Positions 1 to 41,235 of a stretch of DNA of 64,000 nt are shown in pieces. A program made the position numbers and the translations under genes. The notes under the pieces were generated by a model, which made no database searches, was not told where the DNA came from, and saw only the letters and a program-made list of their open reading frames with translations. Location of the stretch: the NCBI RefSeq assembly GCF_009914755.1, contig NC_060926.1; one strand, written 5' to 3'. Source of the DNA: the human T2T-CHM13v2.0 reference genome, Homo sapiens. Each line of letters starts with the position of its first letter. Position 1 is the stretch's first letter.

Positions 1-1184
<1,184 letters not shown>

Positions 1185-1213
1185 TGAATGAGGCCCAACA
1201 CAAATTCATAAAC

Positions 1214-1504
1214 TTTTTTTTTTTTTTTGAGACGGAGTCTCGCTGTGTTGCCCAGGCTGGAGGCGCAATCTCGGCTTACTGCAACCTCCGCCTCCCAGGT
1301 TCAAGCGATTCTCCTGCCTCAGCCTCCGGAGTAGCTGGGATTATAGGCGCCCGCCACCACACCCGGCTAATTTTTTGTATTTTTAGTAGAGACAGGGTTT
1401 CGCCATGTTGGTCAGGCTGGTCTTGAACTCCTGACCTCAAGCAATCCACCCGCCTGGGGCTCCCAAAGTGCTGGGATTACAGGCGTGAGCCACCACACCT
1501 GGCC
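1214..1504 (-). mobile_element. AluS, antisense, inside MER30
   Basis: Full dimer; TSD ATTC(A/G)TAAACTTT at 1204-1216 and 1505-1517. Confidence 0.95.
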
Positions 1505-1535
1505 ATTCGTAAACTTTCTTAAAACATTATGAGGG

Positions 1536-1578
1536 GTGTGTGTATGTGTGCGTGTGTGTGTGCGCGTGTGTGTGTGTT
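1536..1578. repeat. (TG)n microsatellite
   Basis: Imperfect gtgtgt... run. Confidence 0.9.
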
Positions 1579-2280
1579 TTAGCTCATCAGCTGTCGTTAG
1601 TGTTAGTGTATTTTACATGTAACCCAAGACAATTATTTTTCCAATGTGGCCCAGGGAAGCCAAAAGATTTGTTAAAACTCATCTTGTTTATTTTTTGCCC
1701 CAGCCCTGAAATACCCTTTTCCAAGGAGCCTCGGTCACTTTTATTGAAGAATGGCATTGAGAAACCAAATTCTGGGTGCCAGCTGTGTTCATTGCTGCTG
1801 GGGGAGTCCCACCACTACTTCTAGACCCTCTCAGTCAATACAGCTAGGAGGTATATGTAGGCTTACTAACACATACATCTATATATACATACATCTATAT
1901 GTATTTGTTTCTGTCCATCTATATAAATATTAAAAACCATGAGTTCATGCTGATAACTTTGATTCCACAGAGCTCATTCTAGCTTTCCCCCATCCCTCTC
2001 CTGCCCAAATAAAAGCAAAACACAACCTTTCCTCAACCTTGCTAGACTTTAAATTATGTAGTAGTTCAGTCTTAGTCATTGTCCTTGATCAGCTGGCAGT
2101 GTCTCACACATAGACCCATCCTTCAATCATTACGCTACAGTTTCTCAGGCTTGGACCCTTACAGCCATCTTTGATTCCCATTAACCTTACTCCCATATCT
2201 AATCATGTGCCAGTGCCCCCTCCTTATCTTAATACTGGTATCATCTCCCTGGTTCATTCAGGCCCTTATCATGCCTCATC

Positions 2281-3165
<885 letters not shown>

Positions 3166-26501: not shown

Positions 26502-27022
26502 TGAGGAAAAGAAAAAGCAACTTCTGACAGCCAGGAACTGGCCTGGAACTCTCAGGCCTTGGTGTTTCCAGGAGCTGGCCTGGCCTCACAGGTGGTGTTC
26601 TTCTGTTGAACATAAGGAATTTCACAGAACATCAACATCAGATAAAGCTGCACTGAATGTAATGGATCATGGCAAAAACAAGACCACTCTAGAGTCATGT
26701 CTGAGCACAGACCAAAACATGAATGTGATTCAAGTCACAAAAATAACCAAGCATCCACCTATTCTGGCTAATGTGGGTCACTGCAGCTTTGCCAATCACA
26801 GCTTGAGCTTCATTTCATTTCTCCCTCCTTCTAGGTAACATTGATTAAGATACCAATCACAGAATCATCTTTCTCCTGACAGCATCCAATCCAGAGCAAA
26901 ACCTACTTTTTGAAACACTCACCAAAATAACCTGATAAAAGCCCAGATCCTTTCCAAACCCCTCTTCCTGGACTGCTCCACATGGGGACATGGGGTGGTT
27001 CTCCTCACTGCAGTGAGCACAG
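26502..27022 (+). mobile_element. ERV1-class 3' LTR (MER89/MER90-like; name uncertain), 3'-truncated
   Basis: Polypurine tract AAAGAGGGGGA (26490-26500) immediately before TG; LTR-like body 'cacagaacatcaacatcag...gacagcatccaatccagagcaaa'. Confidence 0.7.
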
Positions 27023-27024
27023 GC

Positions 27025-27400
27025 CTTCACGTCTCAGTGGACCCGACCAGGCCTGTTTGTCACATCCCTGCTGGAGTGCCTCATGCAGGTCTGTTTGCCC
27101 ACTCTGTCCCCTGTCTAGGCTCCCAGCAATTATCCCTCATGGTCTCCTCCTGATTAATGGGCCCTGCCCCACCACACTTTTTCCACCCCATCCCTGGCTT
27201 TCCTTCTGCCAGCACAGCCTTCTCTACTGTTGCCCCAGCTGTTCTCAGACATTTTCTCACTCCCACCGTGGTGGTAAGACTTACCACCTCTGCTCCAGAG
27301 TCTCAGGCCACTGTGTCCTCTTCACCATCCATCCGACCCCTACCATGTGCTTCCTCATCTTGGCCACCAGGGTCTTCTTGGTCATCAGACCCTACTTCTT
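27025..27400 (+). pseudogene. SPATA31/FAM75-like relic, fragment 1
   Basis: Pro/Ser-rich frame ending ...SSWSSDPTS at the L1 TSD and rejoining fragment 2 in frame; 'RLSGPD..VC..PAG' near the start. Confidence 0.55.
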
Positions 27401-27597
27401 TTTTTATTATTATTTTTAATTATTATGGATACATAATAGCTGTATAAATGTATGGGATACATGTGATGTTTTGATACAGGCACATAGTGTGTAATAATTG
27501 TATCCAGGTAATTGGTGTATTCACCACCTCGAGCATTTATTATTTCTGTTAGAAACATTCCAATTCAATTTTCAGTTATTTTTAATTATACAAGAAA

Positions 27598-27860
27598 AAT
27601 TTGGGAGGCTGAGGTGGCAGGATCACTTGAGGCCAGGTGTTCAAAACCAGCCTGGGCAACATAGCAAGACCCCGTCTTTACAAAAAAAATTTTAAAAATG
27701 AGCTGGGTGAGGTGGTGCACACCTGTAGTCCTAGCTACTCAGGAGACTGAGGCAGGAAGATCACCTGAGCTCAGAATTTGAGGCTGCAGTGAGCTATGAT
27801 TGTGCCACTGCACTCTGGCATGAGCAACAGAGTAAGACACTATCTCTAAAAAATAAAAAA
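27598..27860 (+). mobile_element. AluJ (5'-truncated) within L1
   Basis: Alu dimer lacking the first ~35 nt. Confidence 0.85.
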
Positions 27861-28944
27861 TATGTATATAATAAATTATTGTTGACTATGGTCACCCTGT
27901 TATGCTAATACTAGATCTTATTCACTCTATATTTTTGCACTCATTAACCATCTATACTTTTTCCCCCATCCCCACTACCCTTCCCAGTCTCTGGTAACCA
28001 TTATTCTACTATCTCTATGATCTCAATTGTTTTAATTTTTGCATATGAGTGAGAACAAGCAAAATTTGTCTTTTTGTGCCTGGGTTATTTCACTTAACCT
28101 AATATCCTACAGTTCCATCTATATTGTTGCAAAAGTTGGGATTCCATTTTTATGGCTCAATAATATTCCATTGTACATACGTACCACATTTTCTTTATCC
28201 ATTCATCCACTGATAGACACTTAAGTTGATTCCAAATCTTGGCTATTGTGCAGTGTAAATGTAAATCTGCACTCCATGCAATAAACATGGAGTGCAGATA
28301 TCTCTTCAATATACTGGTCTTTCTTTTGGATATATACTTAACAATGGCATTACTGGATCATATGGTAGCTCTATTTTTAGTTTTTTGAGGAACCTCCATA
28401 ATGTTCTGCATAGTGGCTGTACTAATTTACATTCCCACCAACAGTGTACAAGGGTTTCCCTTTCTCCACATCTTTGGCAGCATTCGTTATTGTCTGTCTT
28501 TTGGATAAAAGCCATTTTAACTGGAGTTAGATATTATCTCATTGTAGTTTTAATTTGCATTTCTCTGATGATTAATGATGTTGAACATTTTCTCACCTAC
28601 CTGTTAGCCATTCGTATGTCTTCTTTTTTTTTTTTTTTTTGAGAAATGTCTAATCAGATATTTTGCCCATTTTAAAATTGGATTATTTGATTTTTTCCTA
28701 TTGAGTTGTTTAACCTCCTTATATATTCTGGTTATTAATCTCTTGTCAGATGGGTAGTTTGAAAATATTTTCTCCCATTCTGTCGGTTGTCTCTTCACTT
28801 TGTCGATTATTTCTTTTGCTGTGCAGAAGCTTTTTAGCTTGAAGTGATCCCTGTTACCCATATTTGCTTTTGTTGCTTGTGCTTTTGAGGTATTACTCAA
28901 GGAGTCTTTGCCCAGATCAATGTCTTGGAGCATTTCCTTAATGT

Positions 28945-29230
28945 CCTTCTCTTCTCTTCTCTTCTCCTCTTTTCTCTTCCTTTTTCCTTTATTTATTTAT
29001 TTCTCTTTTCTTCTCTTTCTTTCAACAAGGTCTCACTCTGTCTCCCAGGCTGGAGTACAGTGGTGCATTCATAGCTCACTGCAACCTTGGACTCCTGGGC
29101 TCAAGTGATTCCCCAATCTCAGCCACCTGAGTAGCTGGGACTATAGGTGTTAGCCACCACACCTGGCTATTTTTATTTTATTTCTGTAGAGACAAGGTCT
29201 TACTATGTTGCCAAGGCTGGTCTTGAATTC
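28945..29230 (-). mobile_element. AluJ (truncated), antisense, with CT-rich tail
   Basis: Right arm plus part of left arm. Confidence 0.85.
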
Positions 29231-29767
29231 CCAATGTTCTCTTTTAGTAGTTTCATAGTTTCAGGTGTCAGATTTAAGTCTTTAAGCCACTTTGATTTGA
29301 TTTTTTTATATGGTGAGAGATAGGGGTCTAGTTCATTATTCTGCATATAGACATCTAGTTTTCCCAGCACCATTTATTGAAAAGACTGTTCTTTCCCCAA
29401 TGTATGTTCTTGGCAGCTTTGTCAAAAATGAGTTCATTGCAGATGTGTGGATTCATTTCTGAATTCTCTACTGTTACATTGGTCTATGTGTCTGTTTTTA
29501 TACCAGTACCATGCTGTTTCGGGTCTCTAGTTCTACAATAAACTTCAAAGTCAGGCAATGTATTTTTCTGGTTTTGTTCTTTTTGTTCAGGATGGATTTG
29601 GCTATTCTGGATCTTTTGTGGTTCCATATAAATTTTAGGATAATTTTTTCTATTTCTGTGAAGAATGTTATTGGTATTTTGATAGGGATTGCACTGAATC
29701 TGTAGATTGGGTAATATGAACATTTTAACAACATTGATGTTTTTCAATCAATGAACATGGAATATCT

Positions 29768-31077
<1,310 letters not shown>

Positions 31078-31490
31078 TATCTTTCCATTTTTTGTGTGTC
31101 CTCTTCCATTCTTTCATATGTGTTTTATAGTTTTTATTGTAGAAATATTTCACATGGTGAGCCACCCTGGCATCCCAGGGATGAATTTCACTTGGTTATG
31201 ATGAATGACCACTTTCATGTGTTGTTGAATTCAGTTTGCTTGTATTTTATTGAGATTTTTTGCATCTATGTTCATCAGAGGTATTGCCCTGTAGTTTTCT
31301 TTTTTAGTATGTCTTTGTCTGTTTTTGGTATCAGAGTAATACTGGCCTTATAGAATTCATTTGGAAGTATTCCCTCCTCCTTGATTTTTTTGTAATAGTT
31401 TGAGTAGGATTCATTTTAGTTCTTCTTTAAATGTTTGGTAGATTTCAGCAGTAAAGGAATCAGATCCAGGGCTTTTCTTTGCTGGAAAAC

Positions 31491-31790
31491 TTTTTTTTTT
31501 TTTTTTCAGACGGAGTCTTGCTCTGTCACCCAGGATGGAGTGTAATGCCACGGTTTCAGCTTACTGCAATCTCTCTGCCTCCTGGCTTCAAGCATTTCTC
31601 CTGCCTCAGCCTCCCGAGTAGCTGGGACCACAGGTGCGTGCCACCATGGCTGGCTAATTTTTGTACTTTTAGTAAAGACGGGGTTTCACCATGTTGACCA
31701 GGCTGGTCTTGAACTTCTGACCTCAAATGATCCACCTGCTTCGGCCTCCCAAAGTGCTGGGATTACAGGCGTGAGCCACTGTGCCCAGCC
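31491..31790 (-). mobile_element. AluS, antisense
   Basis: Full dimer; TSD (T)GGAAAACTTTTT. Confidence 0.92.
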
Positions 31791-32117
31791 TGGAAAACTT
31801 TTTACTATCTCTTTGATCTTGTTACTTGTTATTGGTCTATTCCGGTTTTGGATTACTTCATGTTTCAATCTTGTATGTATCTAGGAATTTATCCATTTCT
31901 TCTAGGTTTTCCAATTCATTGGCATATAGTTGCTCATAGTGCTTTCTAGTGATCCTTTGAATTTCTGTGGTATCAGTTGTAACATCTCTTTTTAAAATCT
32001 CTGATTTCATTTATTTTAGTTTTCTCCCTTTTTTCTTAGCAGGATAAAAGTTTCTCAGTTTGTTTATCTTTTCAAAAAAAATCAGTTTTTCATTTCATTT
32101 ATTTGTTCATTTATTCT

Positions 32118-32427
32118 TTTTTTTTTTTTTTTTTTTTTTGAGACAGAGACTTGCTCTGTCTCTGTCACCCAGGCTGGAGTGCAATGGCACAATCTCAGCT
32201 CACTCTAACCTCTGCCTTCGGGGTTCAAGTGATTCTCATGCCTCTGCCTCTTAAATAACTGGGATTACAGGTGCACATCACCATGCCCAGCTAATTTTTG
32301 TGTTTTTAGTAGAGATTGTGTTTCACCATATTGGCCAGGCTGGTCTCGAACTCCTGAGCTGAAGTGGTCAGCCCTCATTGGCCTCCCAAAGTGCTAGGAT
32401 TACAGGCATAAGCCACCATGCCCAGCC
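32118..32427 (-). mobile_element. AluS, antisense
   Basis: Full dimer. Confidence 0.9.
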
Positions 32428-32548
32428 TGTATTTTTTTTTTTTTTTAGTTTCACTTTTGTTTATTTATGCTCTGATCTTTATTTTTTTTCCACTAATTTT
32501 GGATTTGGTTTGCTCTTGCTTTTCTAATTATTTAAGATGTATTGTTAA

Positions 32549-32920
32549 TGTATTAGTTTGTTCTCACACTGCTATAAATATACTACCTAAGACTGAGTAA
32601 TTTATAAGCAAAAGAGGTTTAATTGACTCACAGTTCCACATGGCTGTGGAAGCCTCAAGAAACTTACAATCAGGGTGGAAGGTGAAGGGAAAGCAAGGCA
32701 CATCTTACATAGAAGTAGGTGAGAGAGAGAGAGTGTGTGTGCAGGGGAAGAGCCACACACTTATCAAACAACCAGTTATCATGAGAATTCTATCACAAGA
32801 ACAGCAAGCGGTAAGACCACCTCCATGATTCAGTCACCTCCAACCAGGCCACTCCTCTAACATGTGGGGATTACAATTCAAGACAAGATTTGGGTGAGGA
32901 CACAGAGCCAAACCATATCA
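32549..32920 (-). mobile_element. MST/THE1-type MaLR solo LTR
   Basis: TGTATTAGT...GCCAAACCATATCA termini. Confidence 0.88.
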
Positions 32921-34034
32921 TTTAGGTTGTTTGATGTGAAGTTTTCCTACCTTTTTTGATGTAGGTGCTTATTGCTATAAACTTTCCTCTTAGTGCTGCT
33001 TTTCTTGTATCCTGTATGGGTATGTTGTGTTTCCATTTTCATTTGTTTCAAGAGACTTTTAAATTTCCTTCTTGATTTCTTCATTGACCTGCCGGTCATT
33101 CTGGAGCATATTGTTTAATTTCCATGTATTTGTATAGTTTCCAGAGTTCTTTCTATTGATTTCTAGTTTTATTCCATTATGATCTAAGAAGATACTTGAT
33201 ATTATTTCAATTAAAAAAATTTTAAAACTTTGTTTTGTGGCCTAACATATGTTCTATTCTTTAGAATGATCCATGTGCTGAGAAGAATGTGTATTCTGTA
33301 GCCATTGGATGAAATGTAAATATCTGTTGTGTCCATTTGGTGTATAGTGCAGATTAATCTGATGTTTCTTTGTTGAATTTCTGTTTGGATGGTCTGTCCA
33401 ATGCTGAAAGTGGGTGTTGAGGTCTCTAGCTAATATTGTATTGAAATCTATCTCTCTCTTTAGCTCTGATAATATTTGCTTTATAAATCTGGGTGCTCCA
33501 GTGTTGGGTACATATATATTTACAGTTGTTATATCCTCTTGCTCCCTTTATCACTATATAATGACCTTTTTTGTCTTTTTTTATAATTTTTGTCTTGTCT
33601 TGAAATATATTTTTTCTGATGTAAGTGTAGCTATTCTTGCTCTTTTTTTGGTTTCCATTTGCATGTAATATCTTTTTTCAACCCTTTGTTTTCAGTCTGT
33701 GTGTATCTTTATAGGTAAAGTGAGTTTCTTGTAGCCAGCATATAGTTGGGTCTTTTTTCTTAATTCCTTTAGCCACTCTATGTCTTTTAATTAGAAAGTT
33801 CAGACCATTTACATTCTATGTTATTGATAGGTAAGGACTTACAAACTGTTGCCATTTTGTTATTTGTTTCTGGTTGTTTTGTCAGCCTCTCTTCCCTCCT
33901 TCCTTTGGTCTTTCTTTGTGTAAAAGTGATTTTCCCTGATAGTATGTTTTAATTTCTTGATTTTTATTTTTCATGTATCTCTGTAGGTTTTTTGATTTGA
34001 GGTTACTGTGCAGCTTGCAAATAACATCTTATAA

Positions 34035-34268
<234 letters not shown>

Positions 34269-35529
34269 TAATTCTGATCACAAAAAAACAACAAACAAGC
34301 AAAGAGAAAATAAAAACTATCCTTTATCCCCATTTTAAAACTTTTTGTTGTTTCTATTTATATATTTTTATACTATCTCTTGAAAGTCATCATAGTTATT
34401 ATTTTTGATAGGTTTGTCTTTTAGTCTTCCTATTCAATATATGAGTATGTAACCAATATATGTGTCTTATACATCACAATTACAGTGTTGGGGGTGTTGG
34501 GGTATTCTATATGTGTCTGTGTACCCTCTGTTATCAGTGAATTTTAGATGATTGCTTATTGCTTTTTAAAATTCTTTTCTTTCCGGTTGAAGAACTCCCT
34601 TTGACATTTCCTGTAGGACAGGTCTGATATTGACAAGCTCTTCCCTCACCTTTTATTTGTGTGGAAGAGTCTTAATCTCTCCTTCATATTTGAAGGGTAT
34701 TTTTGCTGGATACAATATTCTGAAATAAAAGTTTTATTCTTTCAGCACTTTGCATATGTCATACCACTCTCTCCTGACCTTTAAGGTTTCCACTAAGAAG
34801 TCAGCTGCCGGTTGTATTAGAACTCCTTTATATGTTGTTTGTTTCTTTTCTCTTGCTACTTTTAGGACCCTTTCTTTATCCTTGGACTTTGGGAATTTGA
34901 TGATTAAATGCCTTAAGGTCTTATTTGAGTTAAATCTGCTTGGTGTTCTATAACCTTCTTGTACTTGGATATTTTCTCTAGGTTTGAAAAATTCCATTTC
35001 TATTTCTTTGAATAAACTTTCTACCTTCACCTCGCTCTCTACCTCCTATTTTAAGGCCAATAATGCTTAGATTTGCCTATTGAGGCTATTTTCTAGATCT
35101 TGTAGGGTTACTTCATTCTTTTTTATTCTCTTTTTATTTTTTCTCTTCTGACTGTATTTTCATATAGCTTGTCTTCAAGCTCACTAATTCTTTCTTCTGC
35201 TTAATCAAGTCTGCTATTGAGAGACTGATGCATTTTTCAGTTTGTCAATTGAATTTTTCATCTCTAAAATTTCTGCTTGATCCTTTTAAATTATTCTAAT
35301 CTCCTTGTTAAATTTCTCTGATAGGGTTTTGAATTTCTTCTCTGTGTTCTCCTGAAGTTCACTGAGCTTCCTCCAAGCAGCTATTTTGAATTCTGTGTCT
35401 GAAAGGTCACATATCTTTGTCACTCTGGGATTGGTTACTGATTCTTTGTTTAGTTCATTTGCTGAACTAATATTTTCCTGGATGCTCTTGATGCTTGTGA
35501 ATGTTCATTGATATCTAGGCATTGATGAT

Positions 35530-35919
35530 TGTGTTAGTCTGTTCTCACACTGCTGTAAATAAATACCTGAGACTTGGTAATTTATTAAGAAAAGGGGTTT
35601 AATTGGCTCACAGTTCTGCAAGCTGTACAGGGACCATGTCTGGGAAGGCCTCAGGAAACTTACAATAATGGTGGAAGGGCAAAGGAGAAGCAAGCATGTC
35701 TTCACGGTGGCAGAAAGAGAGAGAGAGAGAGAGTGAAGGAGGATGTGCCACACACTTTTAAACCATCAGATCTCATGAGAACTCACTCACTATCATGAGA
35801 GCAGCAAGGGGGAAATCCACTCCCATGATCCAATCACCTCCCACCAGGTCCCTCCCCTAACAGTGGGAATCACAATCCAACATGAGATTTGGGTGGGGAC
35901 ACAGAGCCAAACCATATCA
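35530..35919 (-). mobile_element. MSTA-like MaLR solo LTR
   Basis: TGTGTTAGTC...CCATATCA; 5-bp TSD ATGAT/ATGAG. Confidence 0.88.
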
Positions 35920-37096
35920 ATGAGTTAGGTGTTTATTCTAATCTTTGCAGTCTGGGCTTGTTTGTACCTGTCCTTGTTAAGAAGGCTTTTCAGATTCAAA
36001 GGGAATTGAGTGCTGTGATCTAAGTCTTTGGTCACTGCAGTCTTATCTGTACTAGAAGGTATCCCAAGCCCTCTATCTGTACATGGAATGGGTGGATGGA
36101 TGGATAGTATGAGTCTCTTGAAGACTCATAGAGGTACCGCCTTCGTGGACTTGGGTGAGATCTGGAAGAATTCCCTGGATTACCAGGCAGAATCTCTCAT
36201 TATCTTCCCTCATTTTCCCTAAAAGGAGTCTCTTTCTCTGTGCTGGGCTGTCTAGAGTTGGAGAATGGGTGATGTAAGCACTACTATGGCCACCATAGGT
36301 AGGACTGCACTGGGTCACACCCAAATTCAGCACAGTACTGGGTCTCATCCAAGGCCCTTGGCAACTACTGCCTGGCTACTGCTGATGCTTATTCAAGACC
36401 CAAAGGCTCTTTCCTCAGCAGGTGGTGAATTTTGCCAAGACTAGGTCCTTCTCTTTAGGGCAGCATGTTTTCTTCTAGCCTAGGGTGAGTCTAGAAATGC
36501 CATCCAGAAGCTAGGGCCTAAATTCAGGGGCTTCAGGAATCTGCTAAGTGCCTTATTTTACTGTGGCTGTGCTAGTACCCAAGTTGCAGGACAAAGTCCT
36601 CTTTACCCTTCCCTCTCTTTTTTGCAAGTGGATGGACTCTCTCCCAGAGCTGCACTGCCTGGAATTTGGGGAGGGGTGATGCAAGCACTCCCTTGGCCAG
36701 TACAACTGGTGTCTCACTGGGTCACATGTACCCCAAGTTCACAGGCTCTGAGCCCATTGCAGTACCAGGACTTGCCCAGGGACTGCAGTCCTTGTGGCTA
36801 AGACTGCCTTTCAAATATATTTAGGACCCCAGTCCACTTAAGTCAGCAGGCAGCAAAGCTGGCCAGAACTCAGTTTCCTATTGCTAGGGCAGACAATTCC
36901 TCTCTGGCCAAAACTGATCTAAATGCTCCCTCCATGGGCATTAGCCGAATTCATCTCTGTGTTGCTTTTGGCTGTGACAGGGCAGCAGGGAGTTCCAGTG
37001 CAGAATCCCATGATCACTTCATTCTCCCTCCCCTGAGCACACAAATTCTCTTTTGGCACATGACACTGCCAGGGGATGGGGAAGGGATGGTTAGGC

Positions 37097-37936
37097 CAGT
37101 GGTCCCCCGCCTTTTTGGCACCAGGAACCAGTTTCATGGAACACAATTTTTCCACGGACCAATATGGAGGGGATGGGGATGGTTTCATGGTGATTCAAGT
37201 GTATTATATTTATTGCGTAGTTTATTTATATTATTATTACATTGTAATATATAATGAAATAATTATACAATTCACCATAATGTAGAATCAGAGGGAGCCC
37301 TGGGCTTGTCCTCCTGCAACTAGACAGTCCTATCTGAGGGTGATGGGAGACAGTGATAGATAATCAGGCATTAGATTCTCATAAGGAGCATACAATGTAG
37401 ATACCTTGCATGCACGGCTCACAATAGGGTTCACATTCCTATGAAAACCAAATGCCGCTGCTGATCTGACAGGATGCACAGCTCACGTGGTAATGCTCAC
37501 TAGTCCACCGCTATGTGGCCCAGTTCCTAACAGGTCATGGCCCAGTACTATCTTTTTTTTTTTTTTTTTTTTTTTTTTTGTGGAGTTGTGGGGGGTAATT
37601 ATTTTATTTTACTTTTTAAATTTAAATTGTTTAATATTAAATGAACATGGCCACATTATAAACATTGAAAACTAAAGGAAACAAAGGTACTAAATGCTAA
37701 CATAACTATTTCTACTTTAATATATCTCTTTTTACATAATGTATATTCAAATATATACTGTATATGCAGTGTTATAACTCAACAATGTATTATAAGCATT
37801 TATGTGTTATCACAAAGCCCTCATAACCACTGTTTCAATAGCTGCATCATATTCTGTTGGTTAAATATAGCAAAAGTTATTTAAATAGTCTCCTATGGAA
37901 TATATAGGTATGTGGTCTAAGGGTTGGGGACCCCTG
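37097..37936. mobile_element. MER1A hAT MITE carrying a ~350-bp internal insert
   Basis: Termini CAGTGGTCCCC...GGGGACCCCTG; 8-bp TSD GGTTAGGC/GTTTGGGC. Confidence 0.85.
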
Positions 37937-38153
37937 GTTTGGGCAATGCAAGACTGTCTTTCCTGCCCTCTTCAGTACCTTTTTCCTTGATATGATATTA
38001 AACCCAGTACTGTGATTGCTCACCTGATTTTGAGTTCTTATGAAGGGACTTTCTTGAATAGATAGTTGTTGAATTTGGTGTTCCTCCAGAGGGATGATCA
38101 CTGGAGTGTTTTATGCAGCCATCTTGCCCTGCCTCCTCCCAGCTTCAAAAAAT

Positions 38154-38451
38154 CCCTACCTCTTCTCAACTTCTCCCTTGGTCACCATCAATTCTAGGCT
38201 TCTTTCTGTTACCTGAGCCCTATTTGCACCTAGATCCTACAGTCTTAATGGACCACCTCCCAACCCCCACCCCCACCAGAGCACACTCAGATAATGAATC
38301 TGGTTTCTCAACTAGACCCCCACCTCGTCTCTAGACTGATCCTCCTCACCAGATCCCACCCTCACCCAGGAAATCAACCTTTCACCCAACTTGATTCCCC
38401 CGTGAATTCTACTGAATCATTTGCCTGGCAACCCACCCCCACCAATCCTCT
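38154..38451 (+). pseudogene. SPATA31/FAM75-like relic, fragment 2
   Basis: SPSILGFFLLPEPYLHLDPTVLMDHLP and (frameshifted) DPTLTQEINLSPNL..VNSTESFAW, which parallel recalled SPATA31D-type exon-4 motifs. Confidence 0.7.
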
Positions 38452-38804
38452 TGCTATGGTTTGGCTGTGTCCTCACCCAAATCTCATCTTGAATTCCCAC
38501 ATGTTGTGCGAGGGGCCCAGTGGGAGGTAATTGAATCACCAGGGCAGGTCTTTCCCATGCTGTTCTCATGATAGTGAATAAGTCTCATGAGATCTGATGG
38601 TATTATAAGGGGGAGTTCCCTGCACAAGCGCTCTGTTTGCCTGCCACCATCCACATAAAATGTGACTTGATCCTCCTTGCCTTCTACCATGATTGTGAGG
38701 CCTCCCCAGCCATGTGGAACTGTAAGTTCATTAAACCTCTTTCTTTTGTAAATTGCCCAGTCTCAGGTATGTCTTTATCAGCAGCGTGAAAACGGACTAA
38801 TATA
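38452..38804 (+). mobile_element. THE1-type solo LTR
   Basis: TGCTATGGTTTGG...GGACTAATATA; 5-bp TSD CCTCT/CCTGT. Confidence 0.92.
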
Positions 38805-39235
38805 CCTGTCTACTGCATGACTATCAGACACCTGCATAACTCTGACTCAATCTGACTTAATTCCTGTCCAACTCTATATTGTCCTAGAGAACTCATGTCC
38901 ACATAACACCTGTTGGTTGGCCTCTTCTGTCCCCACAATCTCAGGCTTCAACCACTCAATTCTGCCCAGTTCATTCTTCTTCTGGTAACAGGCATCTGCC
39001 CAGGACTTGTTCCTCCCCACCTGATCACACTGATTTCTAGCAAGAGCTTCTTTTCTTCCATCCATAAGAGGCTTCTCTCTGAGGAAATCCTGAAATAGTT
39101 GTGTGGAGACCAGTAGCTTCTTTCTCCCCAGCCATGAAAGCCAGGAGCTCCTGGAGACACAAGTCACAAAGACAGAGTAGTTCACAACGTCCACTAATAG
39201 TAATAGCAACTGACTATCAGAATATGTCAAAGCTC
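38805..39235 (+). pseudogene. SPATA31/FAM75-like relic, fragment 3
   Basis: TLTQSDLIPVQLYIVLENSCPHNTCWLASSVPTISGFNHSILPSSFFFW*QASAQDLFLPT*SH/DF*QELLFFHP*EASL*GNP/VETSSFFLPSHESQELLETQVTK; multiple stops and frameshifts. Confidence 0.78.
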
Positions 39236-39289
39236 AATGGACTTTTTTGACTCACCCATTACAAATGATGTGATCATTTACATAAGTAG

Positions 39290-39945
39290 TTTTTTCTGAG
39301 AGAGGGTCTCACTCTGTCACCCAGGCTGGAGTGCAGTGGTATGGTCACAGCTCGCTGCAGCCTTGACCTCCCCAGGCTCAGGTAATCCTCCTGCCTCAGC
39401 CTTCCAAGTAGCTGGGACTACAAGTGCATGCCACCACACCTGGCTAATTTTTTAAATATTTTGTAGAGACGGGGTGTATTAGTACATTTTCATGCTGCTG
39501 ATAAAGACATACTGAGACTGGGTAACTTATAAAGAAAAAGAGGTTTAATGGACTCACAGTTCCATGTGATTGGGGAGGCCTCACAATCATGGTAGAAGGT
39601 GAAAGGCACGTCTTACATGGCAGCAAGCAAGAGAGAAAGATGAGAGCCAAGTGAAAAGGGAAACCCCTTATAAAACCATCAGATCTTGTGACACTTATTC
39701 ACTACCAATAGAACAGTATGGAAGAATCCACCCCCATCATTCAATTATCTCCCACCAGCTCCCTCCAACAACATGTGGGAATTATGGGAGCTACAATTCA
39801 AGATGAGATTTGGGTGGGGACACAGCCAAACCATATCGTGGGGTTTCACCATGTTGCCCAGGCTGGTCTCCTGATCTCAAGCTATCTGCCCATCTTGGCC
39901 TTCCAAAGTGCTGGGATTACAGGCATGAGCCACTTGCAGCCAGCC
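39290..39945 (-). mobile_element. AluJ-like split by a THE1 LTR (39475-39838, antisense)
   Basis: Alu breaks at 'agagacgggg' and resumes 'tggggtttcacc'; LTR TSD CGGGG/TGGGG. Confidence 0.9.
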
Positions 39946-39967
39946 CACGAAAACATTTTTTAAGTTA

Positions 39968-40270
39968 GAAGAGAAACTCTTGCACCCCGATAAAAGCGGG
40001 AGCATTTGAGGAAATATGGTTGGGACTTCTGGGGCTCTCCATCCTCATAGCTGGGGACTGAATCCCAGGCTTGGATAAAAGACTCCTTCCCAAAGAGATG
40101 ACTCTGGCAGCAGCAATGTTTTCTCCTCCCCTCTGCTGTCCAGCTCAGCCTGGGGCCTGAGGTTGAGCTTGTGAGACTAGCCTTTACCCACTGGCAAGGA
40201 GAAATACAGCCCTGTTGGGTAGGGGTCCCCCAGCTCCATCCAGCTCAGCCCACTCTCCACAGGCTTCAAA
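39968..40270 (+). pseudogene. Possible SPATA31-like relic, fragment 4
   Basis: EHLRKYGWDFWGSPS resembles the family motif DHLQQKYSQLFWGLPS; 'cctctgctgtccagctcagcc' resembles SPLLSQAQP coding. Confidence 0.4.
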
Positions 40271-40419: not shown

Positions 40420-40603
40420 ATAAATGGATGAATGGATGGATGAACAGATAGATGGATGGGTGGATGCAGAGATGGATGGGTGGATGGATAGATGGATGGA
40501 TGGATAGATGAGTGGGTGGGTAGGTAGATAAATGGGTGGGTGGATGGGTGGATGGATGGATGGATGGATGGATGGATGGATGGATGGATGGATGGATGGA
40601 TGG
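40420..40603. repeat. (TGGA)n tetranucleotide microsatellite
   Basis: Direct inspection; long pure run ~40550-40603. Confidence 0.97.
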
Positions 40604-41082
40604 TGTGATATACTTTTTAAGTGCTGTCCGGAGCCAGCTTTGAGGCCAGGACTAGGGGCCAGTAAGTTCTTTTCTTGAGCAGGTGATTAAGTCCACACTC
40701 CCAACAACCGCCCTTGTTGGGGTCTCATACTTGGGGCCATTATCCACCTGTGCTAATCAGTCCATGGCCAGGTACCACACAACCAGGGATAGTCCTATAC
40801 CCAGAGCCCACTGAACTTATTCAAATGAGCCAATCTTAAGCCTGCTTACCCTGCTTCTCCCACTCCTTTCTGCAGAAACCACAACAAAGGTGCTTGCCCA
40901 TGGCTCCTCGCTTCCCTCTGCCTCATGACTGATGCCAATTATTCCCCTTGTGGCCCCCTGTGGTGTGACATGTACTCCCTCTCCGGGGATCCGTGAGTAT
41001 AGAAAATTATCTTTTCATTGGCAGTCATCTCCTAATCTGTTGGCCTTACCCTACCTAAATAATAATAAAAGCTACTCAAACA
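40604..41082 (+). mobile_element. MER74-like ERVL solo LTR
   Basis: TG...CA; 'ggccaggtaccacacaaccagggatag...gccaatcttaagcctgcttaccctgc'. Confidence 0.75.
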
Positions 41083-41106
41083 AATGGATAGCTTGATGGA
41101 TGGATG

Positions 41107-41151
<45 letters not shown>

Positions 41152-41178
41152 CAGATGGATGGATGGATAGATAGATAC

Positions 41179-41234
<56 letters not shown>
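41083..41234. repeat. (GATA)n/(TGGA)n compound microsatellite
   Basis: Direct inspection. Confidence 0.97.

Positions 41235-41235
<1 letters not shown>

What the first reader, a model, noticed from the sequence alone, without database searches (positions are those of the whole stretch)
27025..40270. Shattered SPATA31/FAM75-like gene relic reassembled across 13 kb of insertions
Seen: C-rich non-repeat islands at 27025-27400, 38154-38451, 38805-39235 and ~39968-40270, separated by TSD-bounded elements. Removing the L1 and one TSD joins ORF 27157 (...SSWSSDPTS) to ORF 38113 (PTSSQLLPWSPSILG...) in the same frame. From recalled family sequences (not a search), the pieces give collinear SPATA31 large-exon motifs: SPS.L...L.PEP...LD....DH.P; DPTL.Q.IN..PNL...N.T.SFA; TLTQ.D...P..W LAS.VPTISG..HS....S...W*Q..A..LF.PT.SH; DF.QE.L..HP.EAS..G.P...VE..S.F..S...Q.LLE.QV.K; and, weakly, HL.KY...FWG.PS. 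Stops and frameshifts show it is dead. Inference: an ancient, possibly unannotated copy of this testis gene family away from the known chromosome 9 clusters. It must predate the L1MA insertion and could be intact in other mammals.
Basis: partly seen in the sequence, partly recalled or inferred. Interest (0 to 1): 0.85.

Follow-up and report, generated by a model that had tools for sequence, protein, structure and literature searches.

The report
Dead SPATA31 gene fragment on chromosome 2

Summary
The core observation holds. Window 38167-40185 (+) carries about 0.9 kb of DNA homologous to the large coding exon of the chromosome 9 SPATA31 genes. A DNA profile of the family hits 38837-39184 in the raw window at E 1.8e-51. 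One real gene aligns across islands B, C and D at E 5e-35 once the repeats are excised. Excising the LTR at 38452-38809 restores exact collinearity: gene nt 688-951, then 956-1334. Island D, the first residues of the FAM75 domain with the FWG.PS motif, is moderately supported.

Island A (27025-27400) is not supported. It adds 0-3.8 bits, no more than shuffled sequence. No DUF4599 part and no remainder of the FAM75 domain was found in the window or in 40 kb of flanks.

So this is an internal fragment, about a quarter of the exon, with stops and frameshifts. It is not a whole shattered gene.

The genome holds at least six similarly old SPATA31 relics elsewhere, on chr3, 5, 9 and 11, in an unresolved comb. 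RefSeq lists nothing here. GENCODE and other mammals could not be checked.

Interest is low.

The parts
38167..38451 (+). Island B: C-rich stretch homologous to SPATA31 large-exon nt ~369-633 of the ORF (locus L003 nt 687-951).
   Evidence: nhmmer on B alone: L015 E 1e-05, L022 2.7e-05, L001/L002 3.4e-05, L003 3.3e-04; reversed control best E 8.2. B adds 27-37 bits to the spliced alignment for L003 and L022 (0 of 20 shuffles reach it) and about 9 bits for L004 and L023 (1 of 20). Identity to L003 is 160 of 267 aligned columns. Unique in the genome by DNA search.
38452..38809 (+). Solo LTR insertion that splits B from C, flanked by CCTCT / CCTGT. It looks like a MaLR THE1/MST-type LTR; that name is recalled, not tested.
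   Evidence: Sequence. Inverted copy at 39473-39846, arms 75-90% complementary. Four copies in the 13 kb align at 73% mean column identity. Excision makes B and C abut in gene coordinates: L003 951 then 956.
38810..39225 (+). Island C: the core of the relic, homologous to SPATA31 large-exon ORF nt ~613-1010, just upstream of the FAM75 domain. It ends in the LLE.QV.K motif.
   Evidence: The best tblastn hits of the whole 64-kb window lie here (E 0.001-0.002). nhmmer hits 18 of 26 SPATA31 loci at E 7e-25 to 1.6e-07; the reversed control gives 0 hits. Family DNA profile E 5.2e-41, iterated 1.8e-51, in the raw window. The genome-wide DNA search finds only itself and C9:110063285-353, which lies about 400 nt upstream of a FAM75 relic. 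Along the best path there are at least 2 frameshifts and about 5 in-frame stops.
39226..39289 (+). Tail of island C with no reliable alignment.
   Evidence: Posterior probabilities are 0-3 in the nhmmer alignment. None of 51 aligned columns has PP >= 7.
39290..39945 (-). Alu-like element (judged by eye, name recalled) holding a nested inverted copy of the same LTR family at 39473-39846. It splits C from D.
   Evidence: Sequence; inverted repeats; alignment. The hub table masks 39295-39708.
39990..40185 (+). Island D: homologous to the first residues of the FAM75 (PF14650) domain, including KY..FWG.PS. Detectable homology ends here.
   Evidence: In the spliced target, 9 of 15 single-locus queries extend to 40067-40185. 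PP is 8-9 at 40000-40067. D adds 12-17.5 bits for L003, L004 and L023, and 5-6 for L022 and L027; 0 of 20 shuffles reach it in each of the 5 tests. Identity to L003 is 53 of 78 columns. Against: the family profiles stop at 39184-39189, Pfam does not see it, and the 16-aa protein match has E 1.5-2.2.
27400..38153 (-). Full-length, decayed L1 with nested Alus, two LTR copies and other inserts. It sits at the 5' limit of detectable SPATA31 homology.
   Evidence: Poly-T at 27400. Transposase_22 at 34734-35045 (-), E 1.6e-12; Exo_endo_phos_2 at 33254-33547 (-), E 2.1e-04, below the curated cut-off; the other 13 of 15 ORFs have no Pfam hit. The right-hand 200 nt are a repeat with 1945 candidate copies at 79-87% identity, most matches ending at window 38135-38145.
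27390..27399 (+). Left copy of the putative L1 target-site duplication. The right copy is at 38154-38166 and carries a 3-nt insert.
   Evidence: Sequences. Excising 27400-38166 keeps one frame open across the junction. The ungapped match is not significant by count (22 found, 20.6 expected).
27025..27389 (+). Island A: unique C-rich sequence that adjoined island B before the L1 arrived. It is not shown to be part of the relic.
   Evidence: Adds 3.8 bits for L003 (2 of 30 shuffles reach it), 1.3 for L001 (6 of 30) and 0 for L023, L021 and L022. No DUF4599 signal. With the loci as query, 4 of 5 find nothing and L007 scores -5.7. Unique in the genome. For membership: the GC skew of 27100-27399 (-0.41 to -0.48) resembles B (-0.56) and L003 nt 601-800 (-0.62).

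Best explanation
Window 38167-40185 (T2T chr2:99,672,167-99,674,185, + strand) holds a non-functional, very old fragment of a SPATA31-family gene.

What it is. About 0.9 kb of an internal part of the large coding exon survives. It runs from the proline-rich stretch after the DUF4599 part to the first residues of the FAM75 domain. Identity to living SPATA31 genes is 58-70%.

History shown here. A copy of SPATA31 exon sequence landed here. It decayed neutrally, gaining stops and frameshifts. It was later split by a MaLR-type LTR and by an Alu that itself took another LTR. A full-length L1 inserted at its 5' edge.

History inferred.
- The copy dates from about the time of, or before, the eutherian radiation. 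It arose from an ancestral SPATA31 gene, as did a handful of equally old relics on chr3, 5, 9 and 11.
- The rest of the exon was either never copied or was lost by deletion.
- Whether the copy came by retroposition or by DNA duplication is not resolved.
- It does nothing today.
For: Homology:
- tblastn of 8 real SPATA31 ORFs against the whole window puts the five best rows at 38920-39171 (E 0.001-0.002). The next best elsewhere has E 0.2-0.75.
- A protein profile ranks two island-C pieces first and second of 3855 six-frame fragments, in collinear order.
- nhmmer with island C hits 18 of 26 SPATA31 loci at E 7e-25 to 1.6e-07. The reversed control gives 0 hits.
- The family DNA profile scores E 1.8e-51 in the raw window.
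- The spliced alignment to L003 covers nt 541-1603 at 106.7 bits, E 5e-35.
- B and D each add score that 0 of 20 shuffles reach, for L003.

Not a repeat: B, C and D have 1-2 candidates each genome-wide.

Dead: stops and frameshifts.

Truncated: profiles that detect 13 of 13 other relic loci (E <= 2.6e-27) find nothing further in the window or in 40 kb of flanks. Pfam PF14650 and PF15371 find no chr2 match genome-wide.

Old:
- End branch of 0.34 substitutions per site, in an unresolved comb with six other relics whose end branches are 0.26-0.40.
- K2P distance of 0.65-0.86 to all relatives.
- The relic is older than the LTR and Alu that interrupt it.
Against: - Pfam finds no FAM75 or DUF4599 in any of 14 island ORFs.
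- The family profiles stop at 39184-39189 and do not reach island D, so D rests on single-sequence alignments and a short motif.
- Branch lengths come from a hard alignment (555 of 1158 columns kept; 7 of 13 inner branches unsupported), so the age is rough.
- Homology beginning within about 20 nt of the L1 insertion site is an unexplained coincidence if island A is unrelated.
- Function was not tested. No expression or conservation data were available.
Confidence: 0.9

Rival explanations
1. The relic is a once-complete copy of the large exon (or gene) whose 5' part is island A. It therefore spans 27025-40270 and was split by the L1.
For: - A and B were contiguous before the L1 arrived, judging by the positional TSD and the full-length L1 bounds.
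- The joined frame stays open.
- 27100-27399 has the same strong C-over-G skew as B and the gene's proline-rich tract.
- The L003 alignment runs on to 27289, and the 'pm' profile to 27381.
Against: - A adds 0-3.8 bits, which shuffles match in 2 of 30 (L003) and 6 of 30 (L001).
- No DUF4599 part was found by Pfam, by the genome search or by the iterated DNA profile. That profile detects it in 5 of 13 other relic loci.
- The only other A matches are non-collinear, Pro/Ser-rich and not reproducible.
- The exon's 3' ~2.5 kb is absent.
Confidence: 0.2
2. Chance similarity of proline/serine-rich, C-rich low-complexity DNA; no real homology.
For: Island A and some short hits do behave like this.
Against: - E 1.8e-51 for island C with a family profile.
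- 0 hits for reversed C.
- An 80%-identical 70-nt DNA match to a chr9 relic at genome-wide E 2.6e-06.
- Island C is only mildly skewed.
- Matches are collinear across three islands.
Confidence: 0.01
3. The islands are pieces of an unrecognised interspersed repeat family that also seeded the SPATA31 exon, or was seeded by it. That would explain the dispersed, equally old copies.
For: At least seven old copies on five chromosomes form a star-like comb with similar end branches.
Against: - There are only a handful of copies. B, C and D each have 1-2 candidates genome-wide.
- No shared non-SPATA31 flanks were seen among 15 loci, apart from one common repeat present at 423 candidate sites.
Confidence: 0.03
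4. The fragment has been put to use, for example as a regulatory element or as part of a non-coding transcript.
For: None from these tools. It lies in an unannotated 43-kb gap between MRPL30 and LYG2 (hub table).
Against: - Decay is at about the same rate as the other relics.
- It has been interrupted by insertions twice.
- RefSeq lists no functional element here (hub table).
Confidence: 0.03

Closest known systems
SPATA31 (FAM75) genes on chromosome 9. The best match is locus L003 at C9:94.14 Mb, with L001/L002 at 94.08-94.10 Mb. These are probably the SPATA31D cluster; that name is inferred from recalled map positions and comes from no tool.
   Same: - Collinear DNA homology over about 0.9 kb of the large exon (E 5e-35).
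- The same motifs at protein level.
- The same compositional profile along the sequence.
   Different: - No open frame.
- Only about a quarter of the exon is present.
- No DUF4599 part, and no FAM75 domain beyond its first residues.
- 58-62% identity.
- Located on chr2 rather than chr9.
Other old dispersed SPATA31 relics: C3:2.18 Mb (L013), C5:162.75 Mb (L015), C11:45.48 Mb (L018), C11:134.67 Mb (L019), C9:87.68 Mb (L022), C9:110.06 Mb (L012).
   Same: - The same unresolved basal comb, with end branches of 0.26-0.40 against 0.34 here.
- Riddled with stops.
- L013 is the nearest by identity (60% over 439 columns).
- L012 gives the only genome-wide DNA hit.
   Different: - All of them keep 0.9-1.6 kb of the FAM75 region and so are found by Pfam.
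- The chr2 relic lacks that region and is invisible to Pfam.
Young SPATA31 duplicates: the A-type copies (L004-L007) and the chr15 copies of the C9:100.04 Mb gene (L021).
   Same: They come from the same gene family.
   Different: - Those are recent segmental duplicates with end branches of 0.004-0.055, and many have open frames. Bekpen et al. 2017 (PMC5338094, passages read) describe the A and C expansion along chromosome 9.
- The chr2 relic is shut out of that clade at 100/100 support.

Membership tests
SPATA31 / FAM75 protein family (as a gene) | FAM75 domain (Pfam PF14650, 382 positions) | tested here: not met
   0 of 14 island ORFs match at E <= 10. The genome-wide six-frame search gives 52 matches, none on chr2. 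DNA profiles of the domain region find nothing in the window. Only about the first 20-70 residues are represented, by DNA homology in island D.
SPATA31 / FAM75 protein family (as a gene) | N-terminal DUF4599 (PF15371), whose positions ~33-88 are encoded at the start of the large exon | tested here: not met
   19 genome matches, none on chr2. Not found in the island A frames. The p5 DNA profile finds it in 5 of 13 relic loci but not in the window.
SPATA31 / FAM75 protein family (as a gene) | Long open reading frame in the large exon (845-1487 aa in the intact loci) | tested here: not met
   About 5 stops and at least 2 frameshifts in island C alone. The longest relevant open frames are 55-93 aa.
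SPATA31-derived pseudogene (sequence descent from the family) | Significant, collinear sequence homology to family members that is not explained by composition or by a repeat | tested here: met
   E 1.8e-51 with the profile and E 5e-35 with a single gene. 18 of 26 loci hit, reversed control 0 hits, shuffle controls 0 of 20. The islands are unique in the genome.
Processed pseudogene (retrocopy) | Fused upstream exons, a poly-A tail and TSDs at the ends of the copy | tested here: inconclusive
   Both ends of the copy are missing or undetectable. No A-rich end or TSD can be assigned. The upstream exons are too short to seek.
L1 (the element at 27400-38153) | ORF1 and ORF2 domains, an A-tail and a repeated 5' terminus | tested here: met
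   Transposase_22 E 1.6e-12; Exo_endo_phos_2 E 2.1e-04, below the curated cut-off. Poly-T at 27400. High-copy terminus ending at about 38145. The subfamily (L1MA) was not tested.

The most novel reading that the evidence does not exclude
The chr2q11.2 fragment is the most decayed survivor of an early-mammal burst that scattered SPATA31 copies over several chromosomes. That would explain the star-like comb of at least seven relics of similar age. At this site, next to the MRPL30-LYG block, a fuller or even intact SPATA31-like gene may persist in some non-primate lineage.
Probability: 0.1. Interest if true: 0.4.

Novelty: new member of a known kind. Interest (0 to 1): 0.2.

Why it matters
It matters little for biology. 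It adds one more decayed pseudogene fragment to a family already known for copying itself.

Three modest points remain.
- Domain-based scans miss it entirely, so counts of old SPATA31 copies from Pfam-type searches are lower bounds.
- Together with the relics on chr3, 5, 9 and 11, it hints that the family was already dispersing copies before the primate segmental-duplication phase described in print (PMC5338094, passages read).
- It is a clean case in which excising dated insertions restores collinearity, which gives a minimum age for the copy.

Tried and rejected
- **Pfam on island ORFs.** Nothing found. The matched part lies mostly upstream of the FAM75 model.
- **Composition-matched controls for island A.** No segment of the window is as C-rich, so the script failed. 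I used block shuffles and reversal instead.
- **Island A as a non-collinear piece of the FAM75 region.** It gave weak hits to A-type copies: nhmmer E 0.03-0.07 and 20-24 aa at 46-50% identity, E 0.1-0.3. This did not reproduce with query and target swapped or with the family profiles. Judged compositional.
- **The missing 3' part of the exon.** Sought with single genes, with profiles and with iterated profiles, on both strands of the window and in 30 kb downstream plus 10 kb upstream. Nothing found.
- **40625-41075 as part of the relic.** It matches sequence inside the chr11 relic L018, but it is a common old repeat with 423 candidate copies. Rejected.
- **L1 5' transduction of the fragment.** Rejected. 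The putative TSD directly abuts the L1 5' terminus.
- **Literature.** SPATA31 + pseudogene: 41 papers, 15 listed, two read in passages. SPATA31 + MRPL30: 0 papers. The FAM75/retrocopy/2q11 search listed 10 papers, none holding FAM75. I found no mention of this locus. Supplements were not opened.
- **A failed script.** One script printed nothing because of a bad option and was rerun.
Full report
**1. The observation**

The window is human chr2 between MRPL30 and LYG2, according to the hub table. No gene is listed at 27-40 kb.

**2. Is it SPATA31?**

Pfam gave nothing for 14 ORFs taken from the islands on both strands. A six-frame search of the window's own genome with PF14650 gave 52 matches on chr9, 15, 11, 3, 5, 6 and 12, and none on chr2.

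That search did supply real family members, loci L001-L008. I translated their long open frames (460-1265 aa) and ran them against the whole 64-kb window.
- The five best rows all fall at 38920-39171 on the + strand, at E 0.001-0.002. The next best hit elsewhere has E 0.2-0.75.
- A protein profile built from 8 family ORFs ranked two island-C pieces first and second of 3855 six-frame fragments, in collinear order. Their individual E-values are weak (0.085 and 0.095).

**3. DNA-level tests**

These settle the question for islands B and C.
- A genome-wide DNA search with 38805-39289 found two places only: itself and C9:110063285-353 (80% identity, E 2.6e-06). The second lies about 400 nt upstream of a FAM75 relic on the same strand.
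- Islands B, D and A are each unique in the genome, so they are not a common repeat.
- nhmmer with island C hit 18 of 26 SPATA31 loci at E 7e-25 to 1.6e-07. The 8 misses are F/G-type genes and relics that keep only later parts of the exon. The reversed island gave 0 hits.
- Island B alone hit L015, L022 and L001-L003 at E 1e-05 to 3.3e-04. In L003 the B match (nt 688-951) is followed directly by the C match (nt 956-1334), so removing the LTR at 38452-38809 restores collinearity to within a few bases.
- A family DNA profile scores 38837-39184 at E 5.2e-41, and at 1.8e-51 after one iteration that adds the relic loci, in the unspliced window.
- With the repeats excised inside a script, L003 aligns over nt 541-1603 to window 27289...40067 at 106.7 bits, E 5e-35.
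- Identity in that alignment is 160 of 267 columns in B, 239 of 410 in C and 53 of 78 in the good part of D. Against relic L022 it is 63-64% in B and C.

**4. Which islands belong**

I measured the score each island adds to the spliced alignment and compared it with block-shuffled and reversed versions of that island.

| Island | Score added | Shuffles reaching it |
|---|---|---|
| B | 27-37 bits (L003, L022) | 0 of 20 |
| B | ~9 bits (L004, L023) | 1 of 20 |
| B | ~1 bit (L027) | 4 of 20 |
| D | 12-17.5 bits (L003, L004, L023) | 0 of 20 |
| D | 5-6 bits (L022, L027) | 0 of 20 |
| A | 3.8 bits (L003) | 2 of 30 |
| A | 1.3 bits (L001) | 6 of 30 |
| A | 0 bits (L023, L021, L022) | 17-28 of 30 |

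- **Island D.** The high-confidence part is 40000-40067, which encodes KY..FWG.PS, opposite the first residues of the FAM75 model. In all, 9 of 15 loci extend into D. Against D: the family profiles stop at 39184-39189, and the 16-residue protein match has E 1.5-2.2 on its own.
- **Island A.** Its contribution is no better than shuffled sequence. The 'pm' profile reaches only to 27381. I therefore accept B, C and, with less weight, D. Island A is not shown to belong.

**5. Island A and the L1**

The interval 27400 to about 38145 is one full-length L1 on the minus strand, with nested inserts.
- A poly-T begins at 27400.
- An L1 ORF1 domain lies at 34734-35045 (-) and a weak endonuclease match at 33254-33547 (-).
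- The last 200 nt are a repeat with 1945 candidate copies, most of whose matches end at window 38135-38145. To my recollection this stretch resembles the reverse complement of an L1 5' start.
- The bases just outside the two ends share CCCTAC..TTCT, with a 3-nt insert on the right. Ungapped, this is not significant by count, so the support is positional only.

A and B were therefore very probably neighbours before the L1 came.

An open frame and a shared C-rich skew (27100-27399 at -0.41 to -0.48; B at -0.56; L003 nt 601-800 at -0.62) are suggestive but are not homology. In the genes, the DUF4599 part is encoded at the very start of the large exon (L003 nt 376-543). It should lie in island A, and it was not found:
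- not by Pfam;
- not by the genome search (19 matches, none on chr2);
- not by a DNA profile that detects it in 5 of 13 other relic loci.

A weak non-collinear match of island A to the Pro/Ser-rich part of A-type copies did not reproduce.

**6. The missing rest**

A DNA profile of ORF nt 900-3000 finds 13 of 13 other relic loci at E <= 2.6e-27. It finds nothing in the window, and an iterated version does no better. Single-gene queries find only B and C. Nothing is found in 30 kb downstream or 10 kb upstream of the window.

After 40185 come unique sequence, an (ATGG)n array, a common old repeat with 423 candidate copies, and a (GATA)n array. The relic is therefore an internal fragment, roughly ORF nt 369-1285 of about 3.8 kb.

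**7. Age and kin**

I built a maximum-likelihood tree of the homologous stretch: 16 rows, 555 of 1158 columns kept, with 7 of 13 inner branches unsupported.
- The chr2 relic sits in an unresolved comb with six other long-branched relics (chr3:2.18, chr5:162.75, chr11:45.48, chr11:134.67, chr9:87.68 and chr9:110.06 Mb) and the L001/L003 gene pair.
- It is shut out at 100/100 from the clade that holds the A-type, C9:100 Mb and chr15 copies.
- Its end branch is 0.34, against 0.26-0.40 for the other relics. K2P distances to all relatives are 0.65-0.86.

By recalled neutral divergences of old mammalian repeats, this points to about the eutherian radiation or earlier. The alignment is hard, so the estimate is rough.

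The relic predates the LTR that splits it and the Alu that carries a second LTR copy.

How the copy arrived, by retroposition or by DNA duplication, cannot be told, because both ends are gone.

**8. What is known**

- Bekpen et al. 2017 (PMC5338094, passages found by term search) describe a single mouse gene on chr13, A and C types expanding along human chr9, and more diverged D and E members. 'Chromosome 2' does not occur in the main text.
- The HGNC 2026 paper (PMC12807706, one passage) notes the renaming of C9orf131 and C2orf16 to SPATA31G1 and SPATA31H1.
- No paper in the library holds both SPATA31 and MRPL30.
- I could not check GENCODE, Dfam or other mammalian genomes.
- The gene names I attach to loci (D-type and so on) are inferred from recalled map positions.

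**9. Verdict**

This is a real, dead, partial SPATA31 pseudogene fragment.
- The 13-kb reassembly and the picture of a whole gene copy are not supported.
- It is an ordinary kind of object, and interest is low.

Noticed in passing
G000 loci L012-L020, L022: C3:2.18, C3:40.72, C5:162.75 and 162.76, C6:23.63, C11:45.48 and 134.67, C12:73.62, C9:87.68 and 110.06 Mb: There is a set of old SPATA31 relics, full of stops, off or away from the known chr9 clusters. The six that overlap the chr2 fragment form a star-like comb with end branches of 0.26-0.40. This hints at an early burst of dispersal. Whether they are annotated or processed was not examined.
   Followed up: partly
window 40625-41075; L018 3201-3641: This is an old interspersed repeat: 423 candidate copies genome-wide, 70-74% identity among the 40 scored. 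A copy is also inserted inside the chr11:45.48 Mb SPATA31 relic, which at first looked like shared flank. The family name is unknown.
   Followed up: partly
window 32540-32900 (-), 35505-35935 (-), 38452-38806 (+), 39473-39846 (-): Four copies of one LTR-like repeat family lie within 8 kb, at 73% mean column identity. Two are nested in the L1, one in an Alu and one in the SPATA31 relic. They look like the MaLR THE1/MST type; that name is recalled, not tested.
   Followed up: partly
window 37090-37940: An element with inverted GGTCCCC...GGGGACC-type ends sits inside the L1 5' region. It is itself interrupted by a long poly-T and an AT-rich insert at about 37553-37900. It was not identified.
   Followed up: no
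window 40424-40603 and 41087-41235: Two tetranucleotide arrays, (ATGG)45 and (GATA)37.5, flank the old repeat just downstream of where the SPATA31 homology ends.
   Followed up: no
G000 C15:18.50-18.51 and 20.07-20.08 Mb (L021): Two identical-scoring FAM75 copies on chr15 sit next to the C9:100.04 Mb gene in the tree, with end branches of about 0.055. These are recent duplicates, unlike the old relics.
   Followed up: no
window 26781-26947: Just upstream of island A there is a weak nhmmer match to non-SPATA31 parts of two loci: L021 284-469 (-) at E 0.0011 and L027 8663-8789 at E 0.0064. It is probably a shared old repeat.
   Followed up: no
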